DNA of 62,084 bases, from the IMG/VR virus record IMGVR_UViG_3300042504_002530, positions 1 through 62,084 of that record; one strand, 5' to 3'. Positions 4,184-46,300 of the stretch are shown one piece after another. The notes below the pieces were generated by a model. It was not told the DNA's origin. It saw only the letters and a program-made list of their open reading frames with translations, and did not search any database. Made by a program: the position numbers and the translations under genes. The stretch's first letter is position 1. Each line of letters begins with the position of its first letter. Source of the DNA: a virus (taxonomy: Duplodnaviria > Caudoviricetes).

Positions 4184-4373
4184 AGCCGGCGCTCCTGTCG
4201 TACAGGACGCTGTCGCCGTCCTTAACAGCACAGACTTCGTTGCCGACGCTGACGACCTTGGCCTCCCGGTAGCGGATGTCCTCGGCGTCCTTGCTTGACA
4301 TGGTTAGCCCGCTGCCGGTCTTTATCTCCCGGTGGACTTCTTCGGCGACGATGAACTTATTTATTGCTTTCAT
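4116..4373 (-). CDS. groS: Co-chaperonin GroES
   Basis: KTGSGL mobile loop, VVSVG, VKDGDxVLY, YLVILERDV; adjacent to GroEL. Confidence 0.9.
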   Translation of the reverse strand: MKAINKFIVAEEVHREIKTGSGLTMSSKDAEDIRYREAKVVSVGNEVCAVKDGDSVLYDRSAGFKLMIEGHQYLVILERDVVVVL

Positions 4374-5913
4374 TGGTAATAATTGCGTTTGTACCTAGAA
4401 GAGTGGCCGCTACGCTCGTAGCGCTGATGAGAGCGTTCTTTGTCACCTTGGCCGGGTCAATGACCCCCATGCCCATCATGTCGCCGTAGTGCATGCTCTT
4501 TAGGTCAAGCCCGAAGCCGAACGCGCACCCACGAATGTTCTGCTGGACCTCCAAGTCGTTTACGCCGGCATTCTCCAGAATCTGACGGAACGGAGCCATC
4601 AACGCCCGGCAGAACACCCTCCGGACACGCTCGATATGGCCCTCCTCCTCCATGACCTCATGGGCGATGTAGTTAAGCGCCACCCCTCCGCCGGGCAGTA
4701 CACCCTCGGCTAGCGCGCTACGCACGGCGCAGACCGCGTCATCAACCCGGTCATACAGCTCTTTCTGCTCCACGTCCGTATTTGCCCCGACGTAGATGAC
4801 CGACATGCCCCCCCGGAGGCTTGCAATTCTCTCCATAATAAACTCCCGCTCGTCCTTGCGCTCGGTATTCTTGTGCTGCTCCCATAGTTCTTTGACCCGC
4901 CCGTCAACTTTAGCCGCGTCCAAGTCCGGCCGGACGATGATGGTTTCCTCCCGGCCGACCACGATGCGCTTAGCAATGCCTAGGTCCGTGACCTGAGCGA
5001 TGCTCAAGTCGTCACCGGTCTGCTCGCTGAAGTACTTGCCCCCCAACATGAAGGCAATGTCGCCCATCTGCTCATGCCGGCGCCACCCAAACGAGGGAGG
5101 CTGCACCACGCAGAACTTCAACCCGTTCTTCACCACGTTCGCAGCAAGGGTCATCTGCACCGCGTCGGAGCAGTCCGCGATAATCACCAACGGCTTACCG
5201 CTGTTGATGACCGGCTTGAGCACGTTCTCAATGCTCAGGATGTTGTTGATGGGCGTATCGGACACCAAAACATACGCGTCCTCCAGAATACACTCGTCTT
5301 TCCGTTGGTCGTTGACGAACATCCGGTTCGTGTACCCCCGCTGAAACCGCATGCCAGTGGTTGTCTCCACATAAGTCGTCTGCCCCTGCGAACGCTGCAC
5401 CGTGACAATGCCGTCAGCGCCCACATTCTTGTACGCCGTGGCAATAATCGCCCCAATTTGCGCGTCGTTGTTCGCGCTAATCGTCGCAATGGCCTCCAAA
5501 GACGACAATTTCACCTTCTTGGACAACTTGTCAATGCGCTTAGCCACCTTGTCAGCCATGCCGGTCAGCAACTTGGCCTCACTCAGCGTCAACCCCTCCT
5601 CAATACCACCTAAAGTCATCGCTTCAGCAATGACCACCGCCGTCGTTGTGCCGTCGCCGGCCATCGTAGCCGTCCGGTCCGCCGCCTGACGCATAATCCG
5701 TACCGCCATATTCTCCACCGGGTCGCTCAAAGTGATGGAACGGGCCACCGTGACGCCGTCTTTCGTGACCGTCATGCCCCCAATGTGCTCCGGAGATTCC
5801 AAAATAACCGTGTTACCGCACGGACCCAGAGTGCTCTTCACCGCACCCGCCATTTTTTTGATTCCTGATGCCAAGCCTTGCCTCGCGTCAGCTCCTAAAG
5901 TGAGATTTTTCAT
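4357..5913 (-). CDS. groL: Chaperonin GroEL
   Basis: VKSTLGP, TKDGVTVA, AGDGTTTA, GVLPGGG, GVIDPAKV motifs. Confidence 0.97.
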   Translation of the reverse strand: MKNLTLGADARQGLASGIKKMAGAVKSTLGPCGNTVILESPEHIGGMTVTKDGVTVARSITLSDPVENMAVRIMRQAADRTATMAGDGTTTAVVIAEAMTLGGIEEGLTLSEAKLLTGMADKVAKRIDKLSKKVKLSSLEAIATISANNDAQIGAIIATAYKNVGADGIVTVQRSQGQTTYVETTTGMRFQRGYTNRMFVNDQRKDECILEDAYVLVSDTPINNILSIENVLKPVINSGKPLVIIADCSDAVQMTLAANVVKNGLKFCVVQPPSFGWRRHEQMGDIAFMLGGKYFSEQTGDDLSIAQVTDLGIAKRIVVGREETIIVRPDLDAAKVDGRVKELWEQHKNTERKDEREFIMERIASLRGGMSVIYVGANTDVEQKELYDRVDDAVCAVRSALAEGVLPGGGVALNYIAHEVMEEEGHIERVRRVFCRALMAPFRQILENAGVNDLEVQQNIRGCAFGFGLDLKSMHYGDMMGMGVIDPAKVTKNALISATSVAATLLGTNAIITNESNK

Positions 5914-6113
5914 TTTTCTTCAAAATTAACACTCAAACACCATGCCAAACTCTTCTGACCGGAAAAAATTAACGGCCATCGCTTCCGGGGATTCTCAACC
6001 GGCGTGTCGTCGTCGTCCGAAACCCACTGCTCGTTGAACGATACGAAGACGTTGTTGCCTAAATAGACAACTATCCCGGGGTCGTCCTTGCTGTACCAGA
6101 AGACATCGTCCAT
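5910..6113 (-). CDS. Hypothetical protein
   Basis: ORF between a TATTTTTG promoter (6118-6125) and groL. Confidence 0.5.
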   Translation of the reverse strand: MDDVFWYSKDDPGIVVYLGNNVFVSFNEQWVSDDDDTPVENPRKRWPLIFSGQKSLAWCLSVNFEEK

Positions 6114-6130
6114 AAAACAAAAATACCAGA

Positions 6131-6290
6131 ATGTCGATTTTTTTTCTCCCTATACTCTCTATATATATTCTTATTTTAGATTTCTTCCCAAAAAATCATA
6201 GGAAAAAAATCGTCATAATCTATCAGTAGCTTGATAATCAGCGAGAAAAATTGGCTCAAAATCGTCATACGCTGCCAGATTTTCGACATT
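6131..6290. repeat. Dispersed ~150-bp AT-rich repeat, copy 1 (origin-like)
   Basis: Co-linear similarity with 18894-19050, including identical AAAAAATCATAGGAAAAAAA and CG(A/T)CAT iterons. Confidence 0.7.
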
Positions 6291-6672
6291 TGGGGGTTAG
6301 AAACTTGGAGTAAATGGGTTATCTGAGCCGTTCCGCGCGTCCGTCCGCGTGCGCAAGCACCCCCGCCTGCACGTTGGGGGGTGTTGTATCTTGTGTTACA
6401 TGACGATTTTTTGCCGATTTTGCGCCGACCATACCAACCCCTAAAGGGGTGGTAAAGTACGCCGAAATGGGGCGTTTTGGGCCGACCGAGAGAGGGGTCG
6501 TGTGATGCGCGTTTCCGCCCGAGCATAATGCCCGCGCCGAAAGAGTGGGTGTTTGAACACCCCTCGTTTTGGTCTATACATCTTCGATGTATTGCTCCAT
6601 AACACATCTTACATCCTCCGTTCCCCACCTCTACACCTTCGGTGTAAGCTCCATATACCTTCGGTATATGCT

Positions 6673-6714
6673 CCGTAACACAACTCAAACAAGCCGTAAC
6701 ACAATTCAAACAAG
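6673..6714 (+). repeat. Tandem 21-bp repeat CCGTAACACAAYTCAAACAAG x2
   Basis: Read directly. Confidence 0.9.
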
Positions 6715-7092
6715 CCCCAAATGACACGCCGTGTACGCGTACCCGCCTTGGCGGTTCTTCAAGAACCGCCGCGCAGTGTCCGAAGGACACCGCCCGACCC
6801 CGCGACACCCCCGCGTTACCGCGCCGCCGCCTTGGTATCCCCTTCGGGATACCGCCCGTAGCCCAAAAAACGCGTCACGCTTAGGCATAATGCGTAATCC
6901 CCCCACATTTCGCGTCATCCCCAAATGATACGCGCGCGGTGCTTTCGTCAACTGCTTGATTTTCAGCGCCTTTGCCGAAATCAAAATGTGGATAACTTTT
7001 TTCACCCCCTAACTTGCTGATTTTGAGCCGTTTACATACTCACCGAAAATTTAATTTGACCCTGTTGGGCTGCATTCGGATTTTGCCGTTTA

Positions 7093-7100
7093 TACCTTTG
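7093..7100 (+). promoter_or_regulatory. Bacteroidota sigma-A -7 element (TACCTTTG), first early promoter
   Basis: Matches TAnnTTTG; precedes the structured RNA and the early gene arm. Confidence 0.65.
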
Positions 7101-7634
7101 CATCGCCGACTGACAGCAAACTGACCTCGGCTCCCCACGATACAGACTACCTTGGTAGTCATTGTGGATTACTTGTGACCTACTAAAGTAGGGGTGACAG
7201 CCCAAAACAGAGAGGACAAGGAGAGGTCATAATTTCTAATTATGATGTCGGATGCTTCGTAGTGGTTCCTTACGGAAAGGAACTTAGGGTAGCCGCCTAT
7301 TTCGTGGCTGAGGAATCCCGCACTCCGCAAAAACGGGAACAGGGCAAGGTCAAGCCAAGATTGACCCCGAAGGGGACTGCGACAAAGCAGACCCTACCTT
7401 AAAAAGGTACTTCGGCGAAGGGAAAAGGACAAAACTCCTACGGAGTAAAACCCGATTCCTTACTATGTAACGGCTTTGGTAACACAAAGTATTCCAACCG
7501 AAGGTTGCATAGTGAGGGGGTGGCGCAGACCGAGTTCGTCTAAAAGCCCGATGTGAGCGCTAGAGCCACGAAGATAGAAAGCAGGTTACTAACTATTGGC
7601 CACCCCGAAGGGGTGAAACTTCGGGATTGGTCAA
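7101..7634 (+). ncRNA. Large structured ncRNA candidate (~530 nt), class unknown
   Basis: No credible ORF; more than 12 hairpins and nested long-range helices with G-U pairs on the + strand. Confidence 0.7.
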
Positions 7635-7696
7635 GGCAAAGTACAAGGCAAAGGGGTGTTCAAACACCCCTTGGGGTTCGACTCCCCACTTTGCCA
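7635..7696 (+). ncRNA. tRNA-like element 1 (62 nt; acceptor + T arm, palindrome hairpin in place of the anticodon arm)
   Basis: GGCAAAG/CTTTGCC acceptor stem, TGGGG-TTCGACT-CCCCA T arm, discriminator A. Confidence 0.8.
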
Positions 7697-7764
7697 CAAT
7701 GCCCCGTTGGGGGGCTAAAGCCCCAACAAACCCTTTTTTTCAACGCCATAAACCCTAAAAAATC

Positions 7765-8376
7765 ATGGCTACATTATCCCCCATCGCTCAAATCGTCCGT
7801 TCCAACGCCCAAGTTGCAGAGCAACTCAAGGTCAAGGAAATTCGCACCGTTCTCGCTTCAATAGAGAGCGGTAAACAGAAAGTGTTTACCAAATCGATTG
7901 AACAGGCCCGTCTTTTGGCTAACGCCAAAGAGTGGTTCAACTCCAACAACTCGCTCTGTAAAGAGCGAGGCATTACTTGGAAGTCAATTTTGTCCGATAT
8001 ATTCGGTTTTACCGAATCGGCTATTGAATCCAAGTGGCCCAACCAACTACTGAAAGTAGGGGATGTGACCAATGAACAACTCGAAGAGTTCGTCAAGTGG
8101 GCACAATCCAACGACAAGTCGTTGTCGGTCAAGCAGTTGTACCTTTGGCTGAAGGGCGAAACCGAAGAGACCACCGAAGGTGGTGCTGAAGGCGAAGAAC
8201 AAGCGCCAAAGGCGCAGTGTGTGTGCAGTTGGACGTTCAAACTCCCACTTGTTGGGCAGGGTGAGCGTAATGTATCGGTGAGCATTGACACCGAAGGTGT
8301 TGTCAAGACCTCCAACACGGAGGACGAGTTGCGCCTTGCATACGAAATGATGGGCAAGGCGCTTGGCCTTGCATAA
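7765..8376 (+). CDS. First early protein, unknown function
   Basis: 203-aa ORF with A-rich initiation region, followed by palindrome hairpin and T-tract. Confidence 0.85.
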   Translation: MATLSPIAQIVRSNAQVAEQLKVKEIRTVLASIESGKQKVFTKSIEQARLLANAKEWFNSNNSLCKERGITWKSILSDIFGFTESAIESKWPNQLLKVGDVTNEQLEEFVKWAQSNDKSLSVKQLYLWLKGETEETTEGGAEGEEQAPKAQCVCSWTFKLPLVGQGERNVSVSIDTEGVVKTSNTEDELRLAYEMMGKALGLA

Positions 8377-8453
8377 GAGAAACCGACCGACGGGGGGGGT
8401 GTTCGAACACCCCTCCCTTTTGTATTTCATTCAACCCTTAAAACCCAACCAAA

Positions 8454-8711
8454 GTGCTAAACATTACCAAAAATTTCCAAAAAACCGAGTCCGTGTCCGT
8501 TATCATCCGCTTTGGCCTAACGGTCAACGGCCACGAAGTGACGGGCGAATGCGAAGCATGGGCAAGCGACGGCGTTATGGACGCAGGAAGCATCGTGAAA
8601 TTTGATAACTCACATCTCATGTATGAGTCGGGGCTGTTTTCTCCCGACGAAAAGGACGAAATTATTGAGTATGTACAGCAGGGCATCGACCTCCCAAAAA
8701 TCAGCGAATAA
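8454..8711 (+). CDS. Hypothetical acidic protein
   Basis: GTG-start ORF bounded by two palindrome copies. Confidence 0.7.
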   Translation: MLNITKNFQKTESVSVIIRFGLTVNGHEVTGECEAWASDGVMDAGSIVKFDNSHLMYESGLFSPDEKDEIIEYVQQGIDLPKISE

Positions 8712-8756
8712 AGGGGGTGTTCGAACACCCCTCCAACCCAACCCTAAACAAACACA

Positions 8757-10106
8757 ATGCAACACCCTGAGAATTGGTACATTCCCGTAACCCAAGAGAA
8801 CCGCGCCGAACTTGAGCCGTGGTGGCTAATACAGGCCGTAAAAAGCGGATGGACAGGCAAAAAAGGCCACCTAAACATAGACACCCTGCTGCTTTCAGTA
8901 CACCCTTCCGATAGCAGTTATTATTGGAGTGGAAGCGAGAGCGGTTTCGAAGCAGACCACCCGTCCTATCAAAAAATCACCTTAGAACAATTCCGACAAA
9001 TCACCAACCCTAAACCCCAAAAATCGATGAAAAAAGTATCATGGAAAGAAGTCGTGGCCAAGACCACCGAGTCCTCGAGCGAGGCCATCGCCCAAGTCGC
9101 ATCCAAGGCAATCGCCCAAGCCCTTGCGGAAATTGCGCCACCTACGGGGGGCGAGTTCGACCCCGAGGAAGTGCGCTCGTTGGTCCGCGAGGAAATTGAA
9201 GGCCAAATCGGGGTCATCGTCCACCGCCCCGAGTTGAAGGACGCACTCATGGAGGTCGGGCGCAAGGTATCCGACGACCTTGAGCAGGTGTACATGGCCC
9301 GCTTCGATTCGCTCACTCAGGAGGCGGAGCGCAAGGCTTCACACCGAGTTGAGGTTTACCGAGAAGGGGTGTCCGAACACCCCTCCCACGTCGAGGAAAT
9401 CGCCCACCACAACCTGCACCACTTGATAAAGATGGTGGCGCTCAAGTTGAATGTGGCGCTTATCGGCGAGGCGGGGTCGGGCAAGACGTTCGGTGCGGAG
9501 CAGGCCGCGAACGCTTTGGGACTGCGCTTTTTGCCCATGAGTTTCCACGCCAAAATGACCGCGACGGATATCAAAGGGTACTGCGACGCGAACGGCAATT
9601 ATGTGCCGAGTATCCTGTACGATGCGTTCAAGAACGGCGGGGTGCTATGCTTGGACGAGTTCGACCGCTCGAACACGGAGGTCACGGTGTCGCTCAACAA
9701 CATGTTGGCCGGCAGTGCGTACATGTTCCCGAACAACGAGATAGTGCGCAAGCACGATGATTTTCGGGTCATCGCTTGTCAAAACACGACGGGTTCGGGT
9801 GGTAGCAAGACCTACGCCGCCGCTTCGCGGCAAGATTCATCCACGCTCAATCGATTTGTAAAAATCGAGTGGAACATTGACGAAACGATGGAGCGCAAGG
9901 TGGCAGGCGACACCCACGCCACCGAGAAGGTGCAGGCCATACGTCGCAAGGCCCGCGAGTTGGGTGTGGATATCGTCATCAGCCCACGCCAAAGCATCCA
10001 TGTGAATACCCTCATGGATGCGGGGTACAGCTTGGGCGAGGCGCTCAACTACGCCATCTACAACTGCCTTGCCGACGATGTGAAGGAACGATTGAGCCGA
10101 GTTTAA
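8757..10106 (+). CDS. MoxR/CbbQ/CobS-like AAA+ ATPase with N-terminal 'WYIPVT' module (possible internal start at 9027)
   Basis: Walker A GEAGSGKT, Walker B LCLDEFD, DSSTLNRF arginine finger, ISPR sensor. Confidence 0.9.
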   Translation: MQHPENWYIPVTQENRAELEPWWLIQAVKSGWTGKKGHLNIDTLLLSVHPSDSSYYWSGSESGFEADHPSYQKITLEQFRQITNPKPQKSMKKVSWKEVVAKTTESSSEAIAQVASKAIAQALAEIAPPTGGEFDPEEVRSLVREEIEGQIGVIVHRPELKDALMEVGRKVSDDLEQVYMARFDSLTQEAERKASHRVEVYREGVSEHPSHVEEIAHHNLHHLIKMVALKLNVALIGEAGSGKTFGAEQAANALGLRFLPMSFHAKMTATDIKGYCDANGNYVPSILYDAFKNGGVLCLDEFDRSNTEVTVSLNNMLAGSAYMFPNNEIVRKHDDFRVIACQNTTGSGGSKTYAAASRQDSSTLNRFVKIEWNIDETMERKVAGDTHATEKVQAIRRKARELGVDIVISPRQSIHVNTLMDAGYSLGEALNYAIYNCLADDVKERLSRV

Positions 10107-10153
10107 GGGGGTGTTCGAACACCCCTATTTTTCCACCACTAAACCCAACCAAA

Positions 10154-11086: not shown

Positions 11087-11413
11087 ATGAGTACCAAAAC
11101 CACAATCAGCGAAGCGCTTGGCCTTTCACAGGTATGGGCAGACAAGAACCAACAGGTAGTCGAGAAGGCGTGGAGTGAGCACGACACCGTGAGCGACACG
11201 ATTCTCGATGTGCTCGAGCAGATGCGTGACGCCGAGTTCGGCGAAACGGGCGAGAAGCCAACGACTTACGAGATTAAGTTGATGATGGCGGGCATGCACA
11301 TCGGCGCGAAGAAGGGCGAGTTGGCTATGAAGAAGATGCTCTTTGAGAAAGCATTGGAGACCATGAGCGGAGACCTGCTCAAGAAATTCCGAGGCGAGGA
11401 GAGCGAAGATTAA
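11087..11413 (+). CDS. Hypothetical protein
   Basis: 108-aa ORF followed by palindrome and T-tract. Confidence 0.8.
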   Translation: MSTKTTISEALGLSQVWADKNQQVVEKAWSEHDTVSDTILDVLEQMRDAEFGETGEKPTTYEIKLMMAGMHIGAKKGELAMKKMLFEKALETMSGDLLKKFRGEESED

Positions 11414-11450
11414 GAGTGCCGAGGGGGGTGTTCGAACACCCCCCTTTTAT

Positions 11451-11532
11451 AGTCGGGTCATTCGGTGGATGCGTTGTGCCTTTTTTAGGGTTAGGTGGTG
11501 CGCATTTGCGGGTTCGACTCCCGCCCCGACTA
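11451..11532 (+). ncRNA. tRNA-like element 2 (no D stem or anticodon loop)
   Basis: AGTCGGG/CCCGACT acceptor stem, GCGGG-TTCGACT-CCCGC T arm, central GATGCG/CGCATT hairpin. Confidence 0.8.
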
Positions 11533-11590
11533 CGATGCCTACGGCGAGGCTTTGTATCGTCTTCGATTTCCTCAACCCAATTAAACACCT

Positions 11591-24861: not shown

Positions 24862-24984
24862 CGTCAGGTGGCGGAATTGGCAGACGCAAGGATTATCTGA
24901 AATAAGAAAACGGTGTTGGTATGTGTAAAAAATACACCCGTAGAGAAGTCCCCCAACGTACAGGTTCGAATCCTGTCCTGACTG
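24862..24984 (+). ncRNA. tRNA-like element 3 (Leu-type D arm, long irregular arm instead of anticodon)
   Basis: GTCAGG-TGGCGGAATTGGCAGACGC ... ACAGG-TTCGAAT-CCTGT-CCTGACT-G. Confidence 0.8.
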
Positions 24985-25072: not shown

Positions 25073-25167
25073 AGTCAGGTGGCGCAATTGGCTAAACGCT
25101 ATACCGTTTACGGTTAGAGGCAAACGGAAATAAGTCCTTCTTACAGGTTCGAATCCTGTCCTGACTG
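25073..25167 (+). ncRNA. tRNA-like element 4
   Basis: AGTCAGG-TGGCGCAATTGGCTAAACGC ... same T arm and acceptor as element 3; different central arm. Confidence 0.8.
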
Positions 25168-25190
25168 CAAACAAATTAAAAACAAAACAA

Positions 25191-42389: not shown

Positions 42390-43354
42390 TATGGACAGGT
42401 TCCTATTTGTGTAACGATTCCGTTTTGCACTCTTATCCACGCTTTAGGCGTTCCGTAATTAAGTGCATAATAGCCATCAGAGACAAGGTTTTGAGAATAT
42501 TCATCCGCAAACACCCAGTCATATAAACCAAACGAAGCACCGGCTACGCCGTTAACGTGGCCCTGATAAATCACGCTATCTCTAGCCGCTCCACAAGCGA
42601 GTACAGATGTTGCATACATAGTTGTTGAAGTAAATCCATTTAGCAAGTCGGGACAAAAAACGCGGGCCGAAGAATTATATCCTCCAGTGTTACAAGCCTC
42701 AACAATTCGGCCACGCAACAGGTTTATGTCAGGACTTGTCTTTGGAATATACAAAACCATTGTGCCCGGGTCCGCGGCAATACTAGTTGCCTCCGTTATG
42801 TACTCGGAGTTGACATTATTTGTCCAGTTCCATGCCGAATTGTAGTACTGAAACAACTTGAGATTGGCCACAATAGTCGCAGCCGCATTACATGGGTTTC
42901 CGGCCGTACCAAAAGTGTATCTCTCAGCAATAGGGGTGGCAGAGCCGTATGCTGCAAGTAGATTTTGCGCGCTTCTCTTGCCTCTATTTCCGTATACCGG
43001 ATTTGGATAAGCGTCTTCACCTAGCTGAAAGATAAATGCCGTTGACGATTGCGCAAGAGTGACGCTCATTTCAACACGGACAGCTCCAGTTGCGCCTGAC
43101 AACTCAACTTCAAATTCATACATTCCATTATTATTTCCGCTAAGGTTTGTTGACACAATCGTTTCACAAGGAACAACGCACCCGACAGAAAGGTCATCGC
43201 AGGATAACGCGGACAATAAGAGTCCTCCAGATTGTTGTCTTAAAACTCCACAATACTGATAAAATCCATCGGCCGCTTTTGTAGTTAAAGCAGACGAAGT
43301 GTATACCGCCGTAGCGGTTGAGAAATTTTTAGAATCAATAAAATAAATAGCCAT
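42389..43354 (-). CDS. Tail-associated Cys-rich protein
   Basis: ATAVYT...AADGFY...RQQSGG.L module; beta-rich. Confidence 0.6.
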   Translation of the reverse strand: MAIYFIDSKNFSTATAVYTSSALTTKAADGFYQYCGVLRQQSGGLLLSALSCDDLSVGCVVPCETIVSTNLSGNNNGMYEFEVELSGATGAVRVEMSVTLAQSSTAFIFQLGEDAYPNPVYGNRGKRSAQNLLAAYGSATPIAERYTFGTAGNPCNAAATIVANLKLFQYYNSAWNWTNNVNSEYITEATSIAADPGTMVLYIPKTSPDINLLRGRIVEACNTGGYNSSARVFCPDLLNGFTSTTMYATSVLACGAARDSVIYQGHVNGVAGASFGLYDWVFADEYSQNLVSDGYYALNYGTPKAWIRVQNGIVTQIGTCP

Positions 43355-46300
43355 TAGCAGTTTCCAATTTTAATTACAACGCCAGAAGAATTTAATTCAA
43401 ACCATCTAAAAGTCGTATCATAATAACTATAAAATCCGGAATAGGCAGTAAACGTGCAGCTATTGTCATAGTAAAACTGCTTTCCGATAGCTATTCCGCC
43501 TCCTTCATAGTAAAGTGACATAACGATTCCTGATTTACAAGCGTCTACCGGGCTCGTAAAGACACCCGTAGTCTGAACCTCAATACACGTTGGGCATGGG
43601 GTATTGCAATTACAGCAAGCAGAAGCGGGAATCGTGGCGTGATAGCACATATCAAGCGAAGAAATCCTTCTGTAATCCCAAATCAAATAAAGATATTGAC
43701 CCGATGAGCCTATGCTCATTGACGCGCTATAAGACGCGTCTGGCTCATACTCTACGCCTGGCCCGCTTAAAACACTCGCCGTTGAAGCCGTTATTAAGCT
43801 ATTAAGCCCAGCTGCGGTGTTGAAATTGTAAGGAGTGTTCGTCCTGAGCAATCTAAATCTATCAAGAGCAGTATTGATAAGAAAAGTCCCGCTTTCAATG
43901 CCAAACATTTGTATTGGATTTCCATCCGCCGGCAAGAAAAACGAGCCCGGAGAAACACTAAATGTTGATAAATGAGAAATAATTGGATACGAAACGCTTT
44001 TTTGAGTCGTGAAAGGCTCATTATTCATTTGATTAGGATATGTCCCATACGCAATTTGACCACTCAAATCGACATCATTTGCGTTCGTGAGAACCATTGC
44101 GTAGACCGTGATTGGCGGAGCTCCAAGAGGGCAAGTCGTCGTTAATAAAAAACCGGCTTCTCCTGATGGAGTCACAACAATGTCAGCATAATTAACATTC
44201 GGAAAGTCTTTATTGAAAGTTACCGTGCCTCCTGTTGAAATGGTTATGTTCCCAACAGTTGTGGTGTTGTAAATCACGTCTATGTTTCCATCGCCAATTA
44301 TTGGCCCGGTAATGTAAATATCTACATCACCGATATTTGTTGGATAATAAACCCTGATTATTGTTGGTTCTGTAATGTTTCCGTAGTATTTCTCCGTTCC
44401 GCAATTAACGTATGTTACTTGACTTCCGGGCTCATCACCAACGTGCAAAACGTAGTCTTTTACAAAGGGGTCGTATGCGCCTCTCACTGGGGCGTTTTTA
44501 ATTGGAGAAAACGAATCTCGGAAATAAGACCGCATCCCAATGTCAGAAATAATCAAAAGCTGTTCGCCTGATAGCTTTAGTACGGCGCCTCTTTTTATGT
44601 CGGTAAAGTATATGTCATTGCCAAAAGACGCAAAGCTTTCCGGCTGCTTACAAATACCAAACTCTTCCGTTCTTGCAATCTGATTGCCCAATACTTCTGG
44701 CACACTCGCAACAACTCCACCACCGGTTGAGTCGGCAAGAATATTTTTGCCAACAAGGACCCTAGATACTCTGTCTTCTTGGAAGACTAATAGGTCCGTT
44801 TGCCTTGGGTGCATTCGCTGAATGCTTGCGTAAAGCGCCTCTAGATTTTTGAAGTTAAGCAATCCAAGGTTAAACTCATTGAGCTTATTGACATTTGACT
44901 CGCGATTGTAGACACCGCTGTATGTTATGTCTGAGAAACGATGAACCTCGCTGAAATCAGTTTCAGCAACAGATGTGACACGCTGGCCAAGAAGAAATGA
45001 ATCTCCAACTATTGAATCTTTTATCCTAAAACTCTCAACACCATTGCCAAAAGAATAACAATTATAGAAATCCAAAATGCTAACTCCAGACGTTCCTCCT
45101 GCAATATCCTGACTGACATCATTACATAGGTGATTCCCTGAAGTGTCAATTCCAAAAGACTCATGATTTTCGTAGTACAAATCGGGAAGTGCATCGGTTG
45201 GCTCTGTTTCAAAAACAAGTGCTCCTCCGGCTTTTTGAATAATTATTCGAGCCTCAATGCGCGACGTTTTCACGTTAGGCCAAGAGCAAGCGGGACTTCC
45301 GTGTCTAATAGTCAAGTAAAGAGGATTGGTCGATGCCGAAACAGCTGTGTCTGAAGCAAATTGGTATCTATTTGTCCCTTGTAAAAATCCCGGAACAGCG
45401 CCTACACCAACAAGCGTACTGTTGTCATACGAATCTTGGTTCTGACCAGAATCATCGGGGCAACCATAATCAGGATGAATTGCCTCCTGAACATTCACTG
45501 CTTCACCTGTCCAAAAAGCTTTAAAGTCCGAATAGTTTTGTGATGCAACTATTTTTAAGGATAACAGAGAATCAACCCTTCCGCATTTATTGCTGCTTCC
45601 TCCGCAGTTTCTTCCAAATCGAAAGACCCAAAGGTTAATACTTACAACTGAACCCGCCGGTATATCCCAACGAGTAATAACGCCATTAACAGTATTAAAG
45701 CATGGTATTCTTAACGAAGCATAAGAATTTGCATTCCCGCCACCTGTATCAGTTGACTCGGCCGTTAATGAACCGGTGTCAATGTAATTGTTCGGGTTAA
45801 AATTCGCCGACCATCCATCGTTTTTCAAGCGCATGTAAACACCAGACAGTTCTTGGATAGGCTGCCCGGTCGTCGTTTGGTTTCCGGAAATCCAGTTCTC
45901 AAGCTTAGCCTCTTTATCAAGAACGACAGTAGTGACATAATTCTGCAATGCGCCTTGCGTATCGGATTTCACAATAAGCGTATCTCCAACTTGAACTTTG
46001 TTTTGAGATTCGCCATCAAGTTTTACCCATATACCGCTATCCAATGGGTCGTTGTAAAAGATATTTGCGTAAATCGTGTCATAGCGTTCTTTTGTTGGCT
46101 TTATCACAAACTTATACCTCTTCGCCCACGATGGTGCTTTTTGAGATATAGGTATTGTGACTTTGATTCTATTTCTTGTGCTTGAGTTTCCAGCCGGAAA
46201 AAACACCGTGTTGGTTTGGCTTGTAAGCGCAGTAGTCGACCGGTTGTATTCGTCCATATACACGATGCCAACTTGGTAATCGCGATTGCTATGTAGGCTT

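What the first reader, a model, noticed from the sequence alone, without database searches (positions are those of the whole stretch)
7101..7634. ~530-nt ornate structured RNA as the first early transcript
Seen in sequence: an ORF-free stretch directly after a TACCTTTG promoter element. It has nested long-range helices: TGACCTC 7122-28/GAGGTCA 7223-29; CCACGAT 7135-41/ATTGTGG 7161-67; GGTAGCC 7288-94/GGTTACT 7584-90, continuing through CTAT-TTCGTGGCT 7297-7309/AGCCACGAA-G-ATAG 7564-77; and AGGAATC 7311-17/GATTCCT 7454-60. More than 12 local hairpins are also present. The mismatches are G-U on the + strand, which points to an RNA from that strand. Established: phages carry large ornate RNAs (GOLLD, ROOL). 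Inference: I cannot assign it to a known class, so it may be a new large phage ncRNA (ribozyme, scaffold or anti-defence sponge) expressed first on infection.
Basis: partly seen in the sequence, partly recalled or inferred. Interest (0 to 1): 0.88.

Follow-up and report, generated by a model that had tools for sequence, protein, structure and literature searches.

The report
Structured phage RNA with tRNA-like tail
A freshwater phage makes a roughly 600-base, heavily folded non-coding RNA of a previously undescribed family that ends in a miniature tRNA look-alike, which probably lets the host's tRNA-processing enzyme cut the RNA free.

Summary
Window 7101-7634 has no conserved ORF and follows a conserved TA(C/A)CTTTG box (9 of 9 loci). 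It has the strongest fold excess measured in this genome: z -6.97, against a mean of -1.5 and a minimum of -5.0 in 24 other windows.

Nine related lake-phage contigs carry it. Base pairs are kept through compensatory changes far better than in the neighbouring gene treated the same way. A pseudoknot-type core is shared by two clades whose interiors no longer align.

After a capping hairpin (7597-7633) comes a 61-nt tRNA-like element (7635-7695). It has an acceptor stem, a T arm and an invariant ACAAGG linker, but no anticodon arm, and its covariation is strong. Similar hairpin-plus-tRNA-like modules recur downstream.

No Rfam family matches. Contigs from 4 of 4 metatranscriptome runs cover the RNA.

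Best reading: this is a new family of stable phage ncRNA that heads the replication operon and is released by RNase P, as MALAT1/mascRNA is. Its trans function is unknown and its family is narrow.

The parts
6928..7092 (+). Conserved region upstream of the promoter. It carries three GATTTT-N-(A/G)GC(G/C)-like repeats and is a likely regulatory or promoter region.
   Evidence: 78-82% identical to all six clade B loci that reach it, while the RNA interior does not align. Its function was not tested.
7093..7100 (+). Bacteroidota-type -7 promoter box TACCTTTG (the TAnnTTTG consensus is recalled).
   Evidence: TA(C/A)CTTTG is at the same place in 9 of 9 clade A/B loci that reach it and in MW202828.1. 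The transcription start itself was not mapped.
7101..7634 (+). Body of the structured ncRNA. The true 5' end is inferred to lie a few bases after the box.
   Evidence: MFE z -6.97. The clade B homologue keeps 97.7% of cells paired, with 21 compensatory pairs, against 88.2% in the coding control. RNA-library contigs cover 7093-7654.
7288..7309 (+). 5' arm of the long-range helix that closes the central multi-branch domain.
   Evidence: Pairs with 7564-7590 in the MFE. The inner 9 pairs are kept in 3 of 3 clade A sequences, with one mismatch in L007. Clade B has an analogous two-part closing helix: helices 9 and 10, 12 pairs, 100% paired, none covarying.
7316..7366 (+). Conserved core. It holds helix S1 (7316-20/7334-38), a candidate pseudoknot partner S2 (7324-26/7342-44) and a hairpin with the invariant loop GCCAAGA (7348-66).
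   Evidence: The clade B core model hits here (13.3 bits, E 0.02-0.04) and at the syntenic place in L007 (16.3 bits, E 0.003-0.005) and L006 (11 bits). Across clades, S1 has 4 of 5 pairs compensatory and the GCCAAGA hairpin 2 of 6.
7564..7590 (+). 3' arm of the closing helix.
7597..7633 (+). Hairpin H1, with conserved loop GGGTGAAA. It would cap the 3' end of the body.
   Evidence: 13 pairs, 4 of them compensatory, 90% of cells paired in 10 sequences. Only 1-2 unpaired bases separate it from the tRNA-like element.
7635..7696 (+). tRNA-like element. It comprises a 7-bp acceptor stem (7635-41/7689-95), the linker T-ACAAGG-CAAA, a hairpin at 7653-70, a T arm at 7672-88 with loop TTCGACT, and discriminator A7696. 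It has no D stem and no anticodon loop.
   Evidence: Acceptor stem 100% paired with 3 of 7 pairs compensatory. Hairpin 100% paired with 4 of 7 compensatory. T stem 92% paired. ACAAGG and GGTTCGA are invariant in 10 of 10. Rfam gives tRNA-Sec 27 bits and mascRNA 25.2 bits, both below gathering. ARAGORN makes no call here.
7706..7740 (+). GC-rich hairpin (GTTGGGG...CCCCAAC), then AAACCC and a run of seven T. It is a possible leaky terminator or a 5' cap for the downstream mRNA.
   Evidence: The first 30 bases after the tRNA-like element, which run into this hairpin, are the same in 10 of 10 clade A/B loci apart from 2 bases of the trailer, and the whole hairpin is the same in all ten. The terminator scan did not list it, because the T run starts 6 bases after the stem. 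One low-depth RNA-library contig runs across it.
11420..11534 (+). A second hairpin-plus-tRNA-like module inside the same operon. The palindromic hairpin and TTTTAT are followed by an 81-nt tRNA-like element at 11451-11531.
   Evidence: Model R1 matches it over its full length (22.7 bits, E 0.006). ARAGORN calls it tRNA-Lys in the window and L006 but makes no call on the homologous element in any other locus scanned, and Rfam tRNA does not reach gathering.

Best explanation
What it is. This is a phage-encoded, stable, structured non-coding RNA of a family not yet described. It is made as the first segment of the replication-module transcript.

Proposed steps.
1. Host RNA polymerase starts at the TAnnTTTG-type promoter (7093-7100).
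2. The roughly 530-nt body folds into several 5' hairpins plus a central multi-branch domain. That domain is closed by a long-range helix and holds a small conserved pseudoknot-type core.
3. The body ends in hairpin H1.
4. Directly behind H1 lies a 61-nt tRNA-like element: a 12-bp acceptor/T-arm stack, a T loop, and a GG-bearing linker that could form the tRNA elbow.
5. Host RNase P is proposed to cut between 7634 and 7635. This frees the body with a hairpin-capped 3' end that has only 1-2 unpaired bases, which would resist 3' exonucleases, so the RNA builds up.
6. The tRNA-like piece and the next hairpin then separate the body from the downstream mRNA.
7. The same kind of module is reused further along the operon as punctuation.

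Shown: the anatomy, its conservation and covariation, the absence from Rfam, and presence in RNA libraries.

Inferred: the transcription start, the RNase P and RNase Z cuts, and the stability.

The trans function is unknown. My guess is a protein-binding scaffold or decoy acting early in infection. The reason is that the fold and a few loops are kept while most of the sequence is free to change.
For: Context. The window is a whole 62-kb virus record. The RNA lies between a minus-strand block that ends with GroEL and a plus-strand block encoding an ATPase, RadC, Sak, an exonuclease, a primase/helicase and a helicase.

Fold. Fold excess is z -6.97, the most extreme value among the 600-nt stretches tested in this genome.

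Homologues. The region was found in 10 of 14 fetched loci.

Clade B covariation. 167 pairs, 97.7% of cells paired, 21 compensatory pairs against 0-3 in slid controls. Only 19 of 55 variable pairs are broken, against 82 of 106 in the adjacent gene handled identically.

Cross-clade core. 26 pairs, 98.5% paired, 12 compensatory against 1-2 in slid controls.

H1 plus tRNA-like element. 32 pairs, 94.7% paired, 12 compensatory, and 0 of 500 shuffles as good.

Trailer. All 27 tRNA-like elements listed in clades A, B and C are followed by N-C-N-A, the shape of a tRNA 3' trailer.

Recurrence. Modules recur downstream.

RNA libraries. Contigs from 4 of 4 metatranscriptome runs, from 4 studies, cover 7093-7654, 7126-7557, 7155-7578 and 7155-7270 plus 7367-7600. 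One low-depth contig begins exactly at 7635.

Literature. RNase P cutting at tRNA-like structures of non-tRNA transcripts is established for MALAT1/mascRNA, the C4 RNA of phages P1 and P7, and plant mitochondrial t-elements (PMC4919922, section 5.4, passages read).
Against: 1. No RNA end has been mapped. The contigs give neither strand nor termini, and DNA can sit in RNA libraries (tool caveat).
2. One RNA-library contig (X15) runs 20 nt into the tRNA-like element, so at least some molecules, or DNA, are uncut there.
3. Contig depth was higher for the RNA than for its neighbours in 3 of 4 runs: 10.2 against 3.2-3.5, 58.9 against 2.8-20.4, and 28.4 against 3.7-5.3. In X17 it was equal. The tool warns that this is a poor measure of expression.
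4. The genome's background is structure-rich, with neighbours at z -4.5 to -5.2.
5. The interior does not align between clades A and B (score 30.5 against a null of 24.2 +/- 3.2). The cross-clade model hits are marginal (E 0.003-0.2, rough calibration), and alignment A8 was fitted to the model.
6. In more distant relatives the equivalent stretch is shorter and less structured: L004 z -0.57 and MW202828.1 z -2.75.
7. No promoter separates the RNA from the first gene, so it is also physically a leader.
8. The family is narrow. Only one other IMG/VR contig carries its motifs.
Confidence: 0.6

Rival explanations
1. It is a cis-acting leader of the early operon. The structured RNA and the hairpin plus T run behind the tRNA-like element would act as an attenuator or antiterminator, or as a 5' stabiliser, that sets how much transcription reaches the replication genes. 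The RNA would have no function in trans.
For: No promoter-like site and only about 65 nt lie between the tRNA-like element and the ATG at 7765, so the genes must be co-transcribed. The hairpin and T run at 7706-7740 are the same in all ten clade A/B loci. A low-depth RNA-library contig bridges 7635-7785.
Against: A leader does not need about 530 nt with a conserved pseudoknot-type core and loops that stay invariant across clades. It also does not need a precise tRNA-like cutting module. In 3 of 4 runs the body's contigs are deeper than the downstream contigs, which is weak evidence. This reading is not exclusive with the best explanation.
Confidence: 0.17
2. It is an origin-associated transcript. 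The RNA would activate or prime replication at an origin in the 1.6-kb intergenic region, as ColE1 RNA II does or as T4 and T7 origin promoters do (recalled). RNase P would supply a 3'-OH end.
For: Relatives carry iteron-like repeats just upstream of the promoter: AATCGACATA four times in MW202828.1, and other repeats in L004 and L015. The phage encodes a protein with a DnaA C-terminal helix-turn-helix. The RNA heads the replication module.
Against: The transcript points away from the repeats. After the proposed cut its 3' end would be a closed hairpin, which makes a poor primer. Covariation argues for a folded free RNA rather than an RNA-DNA hybrid. No replication start has been mapped.
Confidence: 0.08
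3. There is no specific function. The region would be a hairpin-rich spacer built from the genome's spreading palindromic or terminator-like hairpins, and it would be seen in RNA libraries only because structured fragments survive.
For: The genome carries 20 copies of one 16-nt palindrome against 0.15 expected, and one copy forms the hairpin of the tRNA-like element. Neighbouring regions are also strongly structured. The interior is not alignable between clades, and whole hairpins come and go.
Against: Loops are invariant and stems covary across clades (GCCAAGA hairpin, S1, H1). The long-range closing helix is kept in both clades. Fold excess is maintained in both clades, at z -6.97 and -7.83. 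The promoter and the 3' module are precisely conserved.
Confidence: 0.1
4. It is a protein-coding gene read with TAA as a sense codon. The phage carries a tRNA whose anticodon ARAGORN reads as TTA.
For: Frame +2 of 7103-7699 holds only three stops, all of them TAA. ARAGORN reports a tRNA with anticodon TTA at 25073-25168.
Against: The frame is not kept in relatives. The longest TAA-read-through frame is 172 of 200 codons in L006, 129 of 205 in L007 (in a different frame) and 52-97 codons in clade B. Lengths differ by 5 and 20 nt among clade A sequences. The frame would also run through the covarying tRNA-like element. Large genes elsewhere are intact under the standard code.
Confidence: 0.01

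Closest known systems
GOLLD and ROOL large ornate RNAs of phages and prophages
   Same: Same size class, several hundred nt. They are encoded by phages and often sit next to or linked with tRNAs. GOLLD was first found in lake metagenomes and has a conserved 3' part with a variable 5' part. Their function is unknown (passages read in 10.1101/2024.12.08.627333 and PMC5737381).
   Different: No match to any Rfam model, even at E up to 10. Far fewer conserved positions. The neighbour is a tRNA look-alike rather than a true tRNA. The family is confined to a small group of lake phages. Nothing is known about multimer or cage formation.
MALAT1/mascRNA and MEN-beta 3'-end formation in mammals
   Same: A long non-coding RNA is followed directly by a tRNA-like structure that lacks decoding function. 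RNase P cutting there makes the mature 3' end of the long RNA, and a local structure then protects that end (PMC4919922, section 5.4). Rfam's mascRNA model is the second-best weak hit on the element (25.2 bits, E 0.02).
   Different: That system is eukaryotic and nuclear, and its 3' end is protected by a triple helix rather than a hairpin. The score here is below the family's gathering score of 42.5, so this is an analogy and not membership. Cleavage has not been shown here.
tRNA punctuation and t-elements of mitochondrial transcripts
   Same: tRNAs or tRNA-like elements placed between genes of one long transcript serve as RNase P/Z cutting marks (PMC4919922, passages; PMC1920247, listing only).
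   Different: Here the setting is a phage operon read by bacterial enzymes. The elements are flanked by hairpins on both sides and lack anticodon arms.
Phage regulatory RNAs matured by RNase P (C4 antisense RNA of P1 and P7)
   Same: These are phage non-coding RNAs whose precursor is a host RNase P substrate (PMC4919922, reference 206).
   Different: C4 is a small antisense repressor. The RNA here is about 530 nt, has no identified target, and RNase P would define its 3' end.
T4 stable RNAs (species 1 and 2) in the tRNA cluster, and bacterial or phage Y RNAs with a tRNA-like module (both recalled, not checked here)
   Same: Phage-encoded stable RNAs are co-transcribed with tRNAs, or a tRNA-like module is fused to another RNA domain.
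   Different: No sequence or Rfam relation was found. None of the 20 different window proteins scanned against Pfam showed a Ro/TROVE or RtcB domain. Not all ORFs were scanned.

Membership tests
GOLLD / ROOL (Rfam models) | A match to the family covariance model at or above its gathering score. | tested here: not met
   The window at gathering threshold gave only one tRNA, at 25073. Window 6600-8000, L003 3450-4250 and L004 2900-3620 at E up to 10 gave no GOLLD or ROOL row.
GOLLD / ROOL (as a kind) | A large, phage-borne, multi-junction RNA with pseudoknots, sited beside tRNAs. | tested here: met
   About 600 nt in a phage. It has a multi-branch domain closed by a long-range helix, crossing helices S1 and S2, and a fused tRNA-like element.
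tRNA | A cloverleaf with a D arm and an anticodon arm, called by the Rfam tRNA model or by ARAGORN. | tested here: not met
   ARAGORN makes no call at 7635-7695. No Rfam tRNA hit; the best is tRNA-Sec at 27 bits against a gathering score of 47, with the D and anticodon arms deleted in the alignment. The middle hairpin has a 4-nt loop.
tRNA-like RNase P substrate | A 7-bp acceptor stem stacked on a 5-bp T stem, a T loop, a possible elbow partner, and a tRNA-type 3' trailer. | tested here: met
   Covarying 7 + 5 bp stems and an invariant GGTTCGA T loop and ACAAGG linker. N-C-N-A follows the acceptor in 27 of 27 elements.
tRNA-like RNase P substrate | Actual cleavage by RNase P at the 5' side of the acceptor stem. 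| not testable with these tools
   The only hint is that one RNA-library contig begins at 7635. Contigs cannot show RNA ends.
mascRNA-menRNA (Rfam) | A score at or above the gathering score of 42.5 bits. | tested here: not met
   25.2 bits in the window and 16.7 bits in L003.
tmRNA | A tRNA-like domain formed by the 5' and 3' ends, a tag reading frame, and a call by ARAGORN or Rfam. | tested here: not met
   ARAGORN finds no tmRNA. Rfam matches only a 15-nt T-loop piece (13.3 bits). The acceptor stem is local and there is no G3-U70 pair.
RNase P RNA | A match to a bacterial or archaeal RNase P model. | tested here: not met
   The only row is 7.6 bits over 26 nt in L003, with none in the window. 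A GAGGAA-TCC motif at 7310-7319 looked similar from memory only.
CRISPR repeat mimic (RNA anti-CRISPR) | Close likeness to the repeats of a CRISPR array in a host. | tested here: not met
   The CRISPR-DR36 hit at 7359-7383 scores only 15.7 bits, E 2.2. A 19-nt pattern from it gave 13 single hits in 185,579 species genomes. None was in an array and none was in a record titled Bacteroidota.

The most novel reading that the evidence does not exclude
This phage group runs a bacterial-virus version of the MALAT1/mascRNA and mitochondrial punctuation logic. Miniature tRNA look-alikes without anticodons, each flanked by hairpins, are placed along the early operon. Host RNase P and RNase Z then cut the transcript into protected pieces. 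The first piece is a hairpin-capped long non-coding RNA with a pseudoknotted core that accumulates and acts in trans. It may be an RNA-only assembly or a decoy, like ROOL or GOLLD with their linked tRNAs.
Probability: 0.35. Interest if true: 0.8.

Novelty: new variant of a known kind. Interest (0 to 1): 0.62.

Why it matters
Large structured RNAs of phages are few, and their roles are an open question. GOLLD and ROOL are the main examples, and both have unknown function despite recent cage structures.

This one adds a new family with a readable piece of mechanism. A tRNA-like element is fused to its 3' end, and sister elements are reused inside the operon. That makes a concrete, cheap test possible: RNase P cleavage in vitro, and end mapping in lake metatranscriptomes.

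If confirmed, it would show three things. First, phages of Bacteroidota use tRNA mimicry to shape their transcripts. Second, the 3'-end strategy known from mammalian MALAT1 has a phage counterpart. Third, GenBank relatives such as MW202828.1 carry small hypothetical ORFs annotated over this RNA that are probably not genes.

Tried and rejected
Rfam. The whole window and four loci at gathering threshold, and three close-ups at E up to 10, gave no family for the body.

ARAGORN. No tmRNA was found. The call tRNA-Leu at L013 3290-3376 spans H1 plus the element and is taken as spurious.

Coding under TAA read-through. Open in the window only.

CRISPR-repeat mimic. No array carries the motif.

RNase P RNA and tmRNA likeness. 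Not supported.

Direct sequence alignment of clade A and clade B interiors. Not significant. blastn with word size 7 matched only the flanks.

GenBank phages by DNA. No match.

IMG/VR searches. The 203-aa protein gave no relative. The 26-nt hairpin motif and a tRNA-like-element pattern each found only the L003 contig.

Distant relatives. L004 (z -0.57) and MW202828.1 (z -2.75) keep the layout of promoter, ORF-free stretch, tRNA-like end and first gene, but the stretch has little or only moderate fold excess. Flavobacterium phage elemoF has no long intergenic region at its divergent point.

Neighbouring 203-aa protein. No Pfam or PHROG family, and only viral hypothetical clusters in the Atlas, so no partner could be proposed.

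TAnnTTTG genome-wide. 52 sites against 45.9 expected, which is not enriched, so the box alone proves nothing. CTTTGYATCG has exact copies only at 7096 and 11550, but with one mismatch allowed the count is near chance, 15 against 9.0.

Read laying. Stretches without cover, such as 8420-8924, and the differing contig ends at 7557, 7578, 7600 and 7654 say nothing about RNA ends. The depth ratios are a weak hint only.

Supplements of papers were not consulted. The Rfam and Breaker-laboratory motif lists in supplements could hold an unnamed motif like this one.

No paper describing this RNA turned up in searches. These were word searches of open-access text only.

This call repeats it unchanged apart from that field.
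Full report
Setting. The window is one complete virus record of 62,084 nt. Genes on the minus strand run up to 6113: a tail protein and a GroEL-like chaperonin at 4357-5913. Genes on the plus strand start at 7765: a 203-aa protein of no known family, an AAA_5 ATPase, DUF7192, RadC, a Sak annealing protein, an exonuclease, a primase/helicase, an SNF2-type helicase and a DnaA-C helix-turn-helix protein. The late genes (terminase, portal, virion proteins) lie on the minus strand from 27 kb onwards. The finding therefore lies in a 1.65-kb gene-free gap, at the head of the replication module. The nearest GenBank phage by primase is MW202828.1 from a freshwater spring (64% identity). Flavobacterium, Maribacter, Cellulophaga and Bacteroides phages follow at 27-39%. 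This, together with TAnnTTTG boxes just upstream of several genes (consensus recalled), points to a Bacteroidota host. That is an inference.

The observation. TACCTTTG is at 7093-7100. Inside 7101-7634 the longest ORF is 57 aa. Three are in the minimum-energy fold, including the 13-pair helix 7297-7309/7564-7577. Two are not in any predicted fold, and GGTAGCC/GGTTACT is lost in close relatives. A 7-bp complement is not remarkable in itself: 14 were seen against 7.4 +/- 3.7 expected.

The region as a whole is remarkable. MFE is -225.9 kcal/mol with z -6.97 on the + strand, against z -4.82 on the minus strand. This genome is structure-rich near the gap. The first gene gives z -5.18, 6500-7099 gives z -4.49, and 24 windows across the genome give mean -1.52 and minimum -5.03. 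The fold excess is thus the largest measured, but not by a wide margin over its neighbours.

Relatives. Searching with the downstream ATPase gave 14 loci, L003-L016. Some are duplicates of one contig: L012 equals L003, and L005 and L016 equal L004. blastn of 6101-7800 matched 10 of the 14. They fall into three groups.
- Clade A: the window, L006 and L007, at 93-95% identity.
- Clade B: L003, L011, L008, L009, L013, L014 and the cut L010, with ATPase identity of 65-74%.
- More distant forms: L004 and L015.

Between clades A and B the promoter region (6928-7114) and the 3' part (7591-7755) are about 76-82% identical. The 280-520 nt between them are not alignable by sequence. Lengths range from 401 nt in L014 to 640 nt in L003, and whole hairpins are gained or lost. 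TA(C/A)CTTTG is in place in 9 of 9 loci that reach it.

Is the fold conserved? In clade B the consensus fold has 167 pairs. 97.7% of cells are paired and 21 pairs carry compensatory changes, against 0-3 when partners are slid. Because the fold was derived from the same alignment, I ran the same procedure on the adjacent 203-aa gene of the same six loci. It also yielded 168 'pairs', 25 of them with a double change. However, only 88.2% of its cells paired, and 82 of its 106 variable pairs were broken in some sequence. The RNA has 19 of 55 variable pairs broken. Variation in the RNA is therefore largely structure-preserving, and in the gene it is not. Clade A alone is too uniform to test (3 sequences, 2 compensatory pairs).

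A shared core. A covariance model of the clade B core was built from alignment A7. It includes helix S1, an optional hairpin, a hairpin with loop GCCAAGA, a helix enclosing a sub-domain, and a GNRA hairpin. It found clade A at the syntenic place as the best hit in each source: L007 at 16.3 bits (E 0.003-0.005), the window at 7289-7434 with 13.3 bits (E 0.02-0.04), and L006 at 11 bits (E 0.1-0.2). These values are marginal and the calibration is rough.

On the resulting alignment, which is fitted to the model, 26 pairs are 98.5% paired and 12 are compensatory, against 1-2 in slid controls. S1 changes from CTTGG/CCAAG or CTGTG/CACAG in clade B to TCCCG/CGGGA or TCCGG/CCGGA in clade A. A second helix crosses S1: ACCC/GGGT in clade B (4 pairs, 100% paired) and TCC/GGG at 7324-26/7342-44 in the window. 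That would make a pseudoknot, but it has no compensatory change yet. Both clades close the central domain with a long-range helix. I read this as one RNA family with a small conserved core and changeable outer hairpins.

The 3' end. Hairpin H1 at 7597-7633 has the conserved loop GGGTGAAA. One or two bases later comes a 61-nt element made of the following.
- A 7-bp acceptor stem, GGCAAAG/CTTTGCC.
- An 11-nt linker containing ACAAGG.
- A hairpin with a 4-nt loop.
- A 5-bp T stem with loop TTCGACT.
- A discriminator base.

In 10 sequences the 32 pairs of H1 plus this element are 94.7% paired. 12 pairs show compensatory changes, none of 500 shuffles reached that, and slid controls give 41-55% paired. 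ACAAGG and GGTTCGA are invariant.

It is not a tRNA. It has no D stem and no anticodon loop, ARAGORN makes no call, and the Rfam scores are below gathering. Its shape is what RNase P reads: a 12-bp stack, a T loop and a possible GG elbow partner (established knowledge, recalled).

The same genomes hold two more kinds of such elements further down the operon. One is 51-57 nt long and found in clade B only. The other is 78-101 nt long and lies at window 11451-11531. Each is preceded by a GC-rich palindromic hairpin and a short U-rich spacer, and each is followed by another hairpin. In all 27 elements listed for clades A, B and C, the acceptor stem is followed by N-C-N-A. A model of H1 plus the element matches these other modules over its full length, for example window 11410-11534 at E 0.006.

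Expression. Fourteen lake or freshwater DNA runs hold at least 57% of the sampled words of 6900-8400, and six metatranscriptome runs hold 11-22%. I laid the four best RNA runs, which come from four studies and are all kept as assembled contigs. In 4 of 4, contigs cover the RNA:
- X15: 7093-7654.
- X16: 7126-7557.
- X18: 7155-7578.
- X17: 7155-7270 and 7367-7600.

In X15, X16 and X18 the contig carries a 65-nt replacement of 7289-7336, at the place where L007 carries its extra hairpin; X17 has no contig over that stretch. Contig depth exceeded that of neighbouring contigs in 3 of 4 runs: 10.2 against 3.2-3.5, 58.9 against 2.8-20.4, and 28.4 against 3.7-5.3, with X17 about equal. One low-depth X16 contig spans exactly 7635-7785.

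The tool warns that contig depth is a poor measure of expression, that DNA may be present in RNA libraries, and that contigs show neither strand nor ends. I take this as consistent with an abundant transcript, not as proof.

How it most likely works. Shown: the anatomy, conservation, covariation and presence in RNA libraries. Inferred: host polymerase starts a few bases after the box, and the body folds. RNase P cuts 5' of the tRNA-like element, leaving the body closed by H1 with at most two unpaired bases. Such ends resist 3' exonucleases (recalled). The element and the following hairpin detach the body from the mRNA of the replication genes. The recurring modules suggest that the whole operon is punctuated in this way.

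The function of the body remains open. Its fold and a few loops are conserved while its sequence changes freely, so I favour a protein-binding scaffold or decoy over a ribozyme. This is a guess.

Rivals. The following were considered.
- A purely cis-acting leader. This is plausible and not exclusive, because no promoter separates the RNA from the first gene.
- An origin-linked primer or activator RNA. Iteron-like repeats lie upstream in relatives, but the transcript points away from them and would end in a hairpin.
- A functionless hairpin-rich spacer. This is weakened by cross-clade covariation and invariant loops.
- A gene read with TAA as sense. The window's frame +2 is open that way, but no relative keeps it.
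- A CRISPR-repeat mimic. No array carries the motif.

Comparison with the known. As a kind, it belongs with GOLLD and ROOL, which are large phage RNAs sited beside tRNAs. It is a member of neither family. Its proposed 3'-end formation works like MALAT1/mascRNA and like tRNA punctuation or t-elements. RNase P maturation of phage RNAs has a precedent in C4 of P1 and P7. None of these is a family to which it can be assigned.

Verdict. This is a real, conserved, expressed-looking structured RNA of a new family with a tRNA-like processing module. It has a narrow distribution: about ten lake-phage contigs, and one other contig in IMG/VR. Its function is unknown. It is a new variant of a known kind. 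Interest 0.62.

Noticed in passing
window, 20 sites, e.g. 8397-8412, 10109-10124, 11426-11441, 7654-7669: A 16-nt palindrome, GGGTGTT-NN-AACACCC, occurs 20 times against 0.15 expected. Most copies lie at gene ends in the 7.6-23 kb plus-strand block, and some lie inside genes. Relatives carry their own versions of the hairpin. Terminator, processing signal and protein-binding site all remain open.
   Followed up: partly
window 11420-11560; L003 4835-4960 and 7440-7590: Hairpin-plus-tRNA-like modules sit inside the operon. Each is followed by a hairpin of the GCCT...AGGC type and then TTTGTATCG, which resembles the start region of the RNA (CTTTGCATCG at 7096). This could be a second promoter type or a processing signal.
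   Followed up: partly
window 24862-24983 and 25073-25168: ARAGORN reports a 96-nt tRNA with anticodon TTA, which would read the TAA stop. Rfam scores it as a tRNA at 32.7 bits. A 122-nt tRNA-like stretch 90 nt upstream shares the same 3' half. Large genes are intact under the standard code, so recoding is not evident.
   Followed up: no
window 6114-7092: The rest of the gene-free gap is also hairpin-rich (z -5.0 and -4.5). Blocks at 6129-6421 and 6810-6883 are conserved in clade B, and an RNA-library contig covers 6659-6939. Relatives have iteron-like repeats in this position. It may be the replication origin, or a second RNA.
   Followed up: partly
L031 (MW202828.1 record 42536-43803): The GenBank record annotates four small minus-strand hypothetical proteins across the homologous gene-free gap. 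One lies over the RNA. They are probably not genes, since the window has no matching ORFs.
   Followed up: no
window 7103-7699, frame +2: The frame holds only three stops, all TAA. Close relatives do not share this, so it is taken as chance.
   Followed up: yes
window 7597-7633 (H1): Two mutually exclusive pairings of H1 both show compensatory changes. One is a local hairpin, CACCYY-GAA-RRGGTG, and the other is a longer stem with loop GGGTGAAA. This could be a two-state element.
   Followed up: partly
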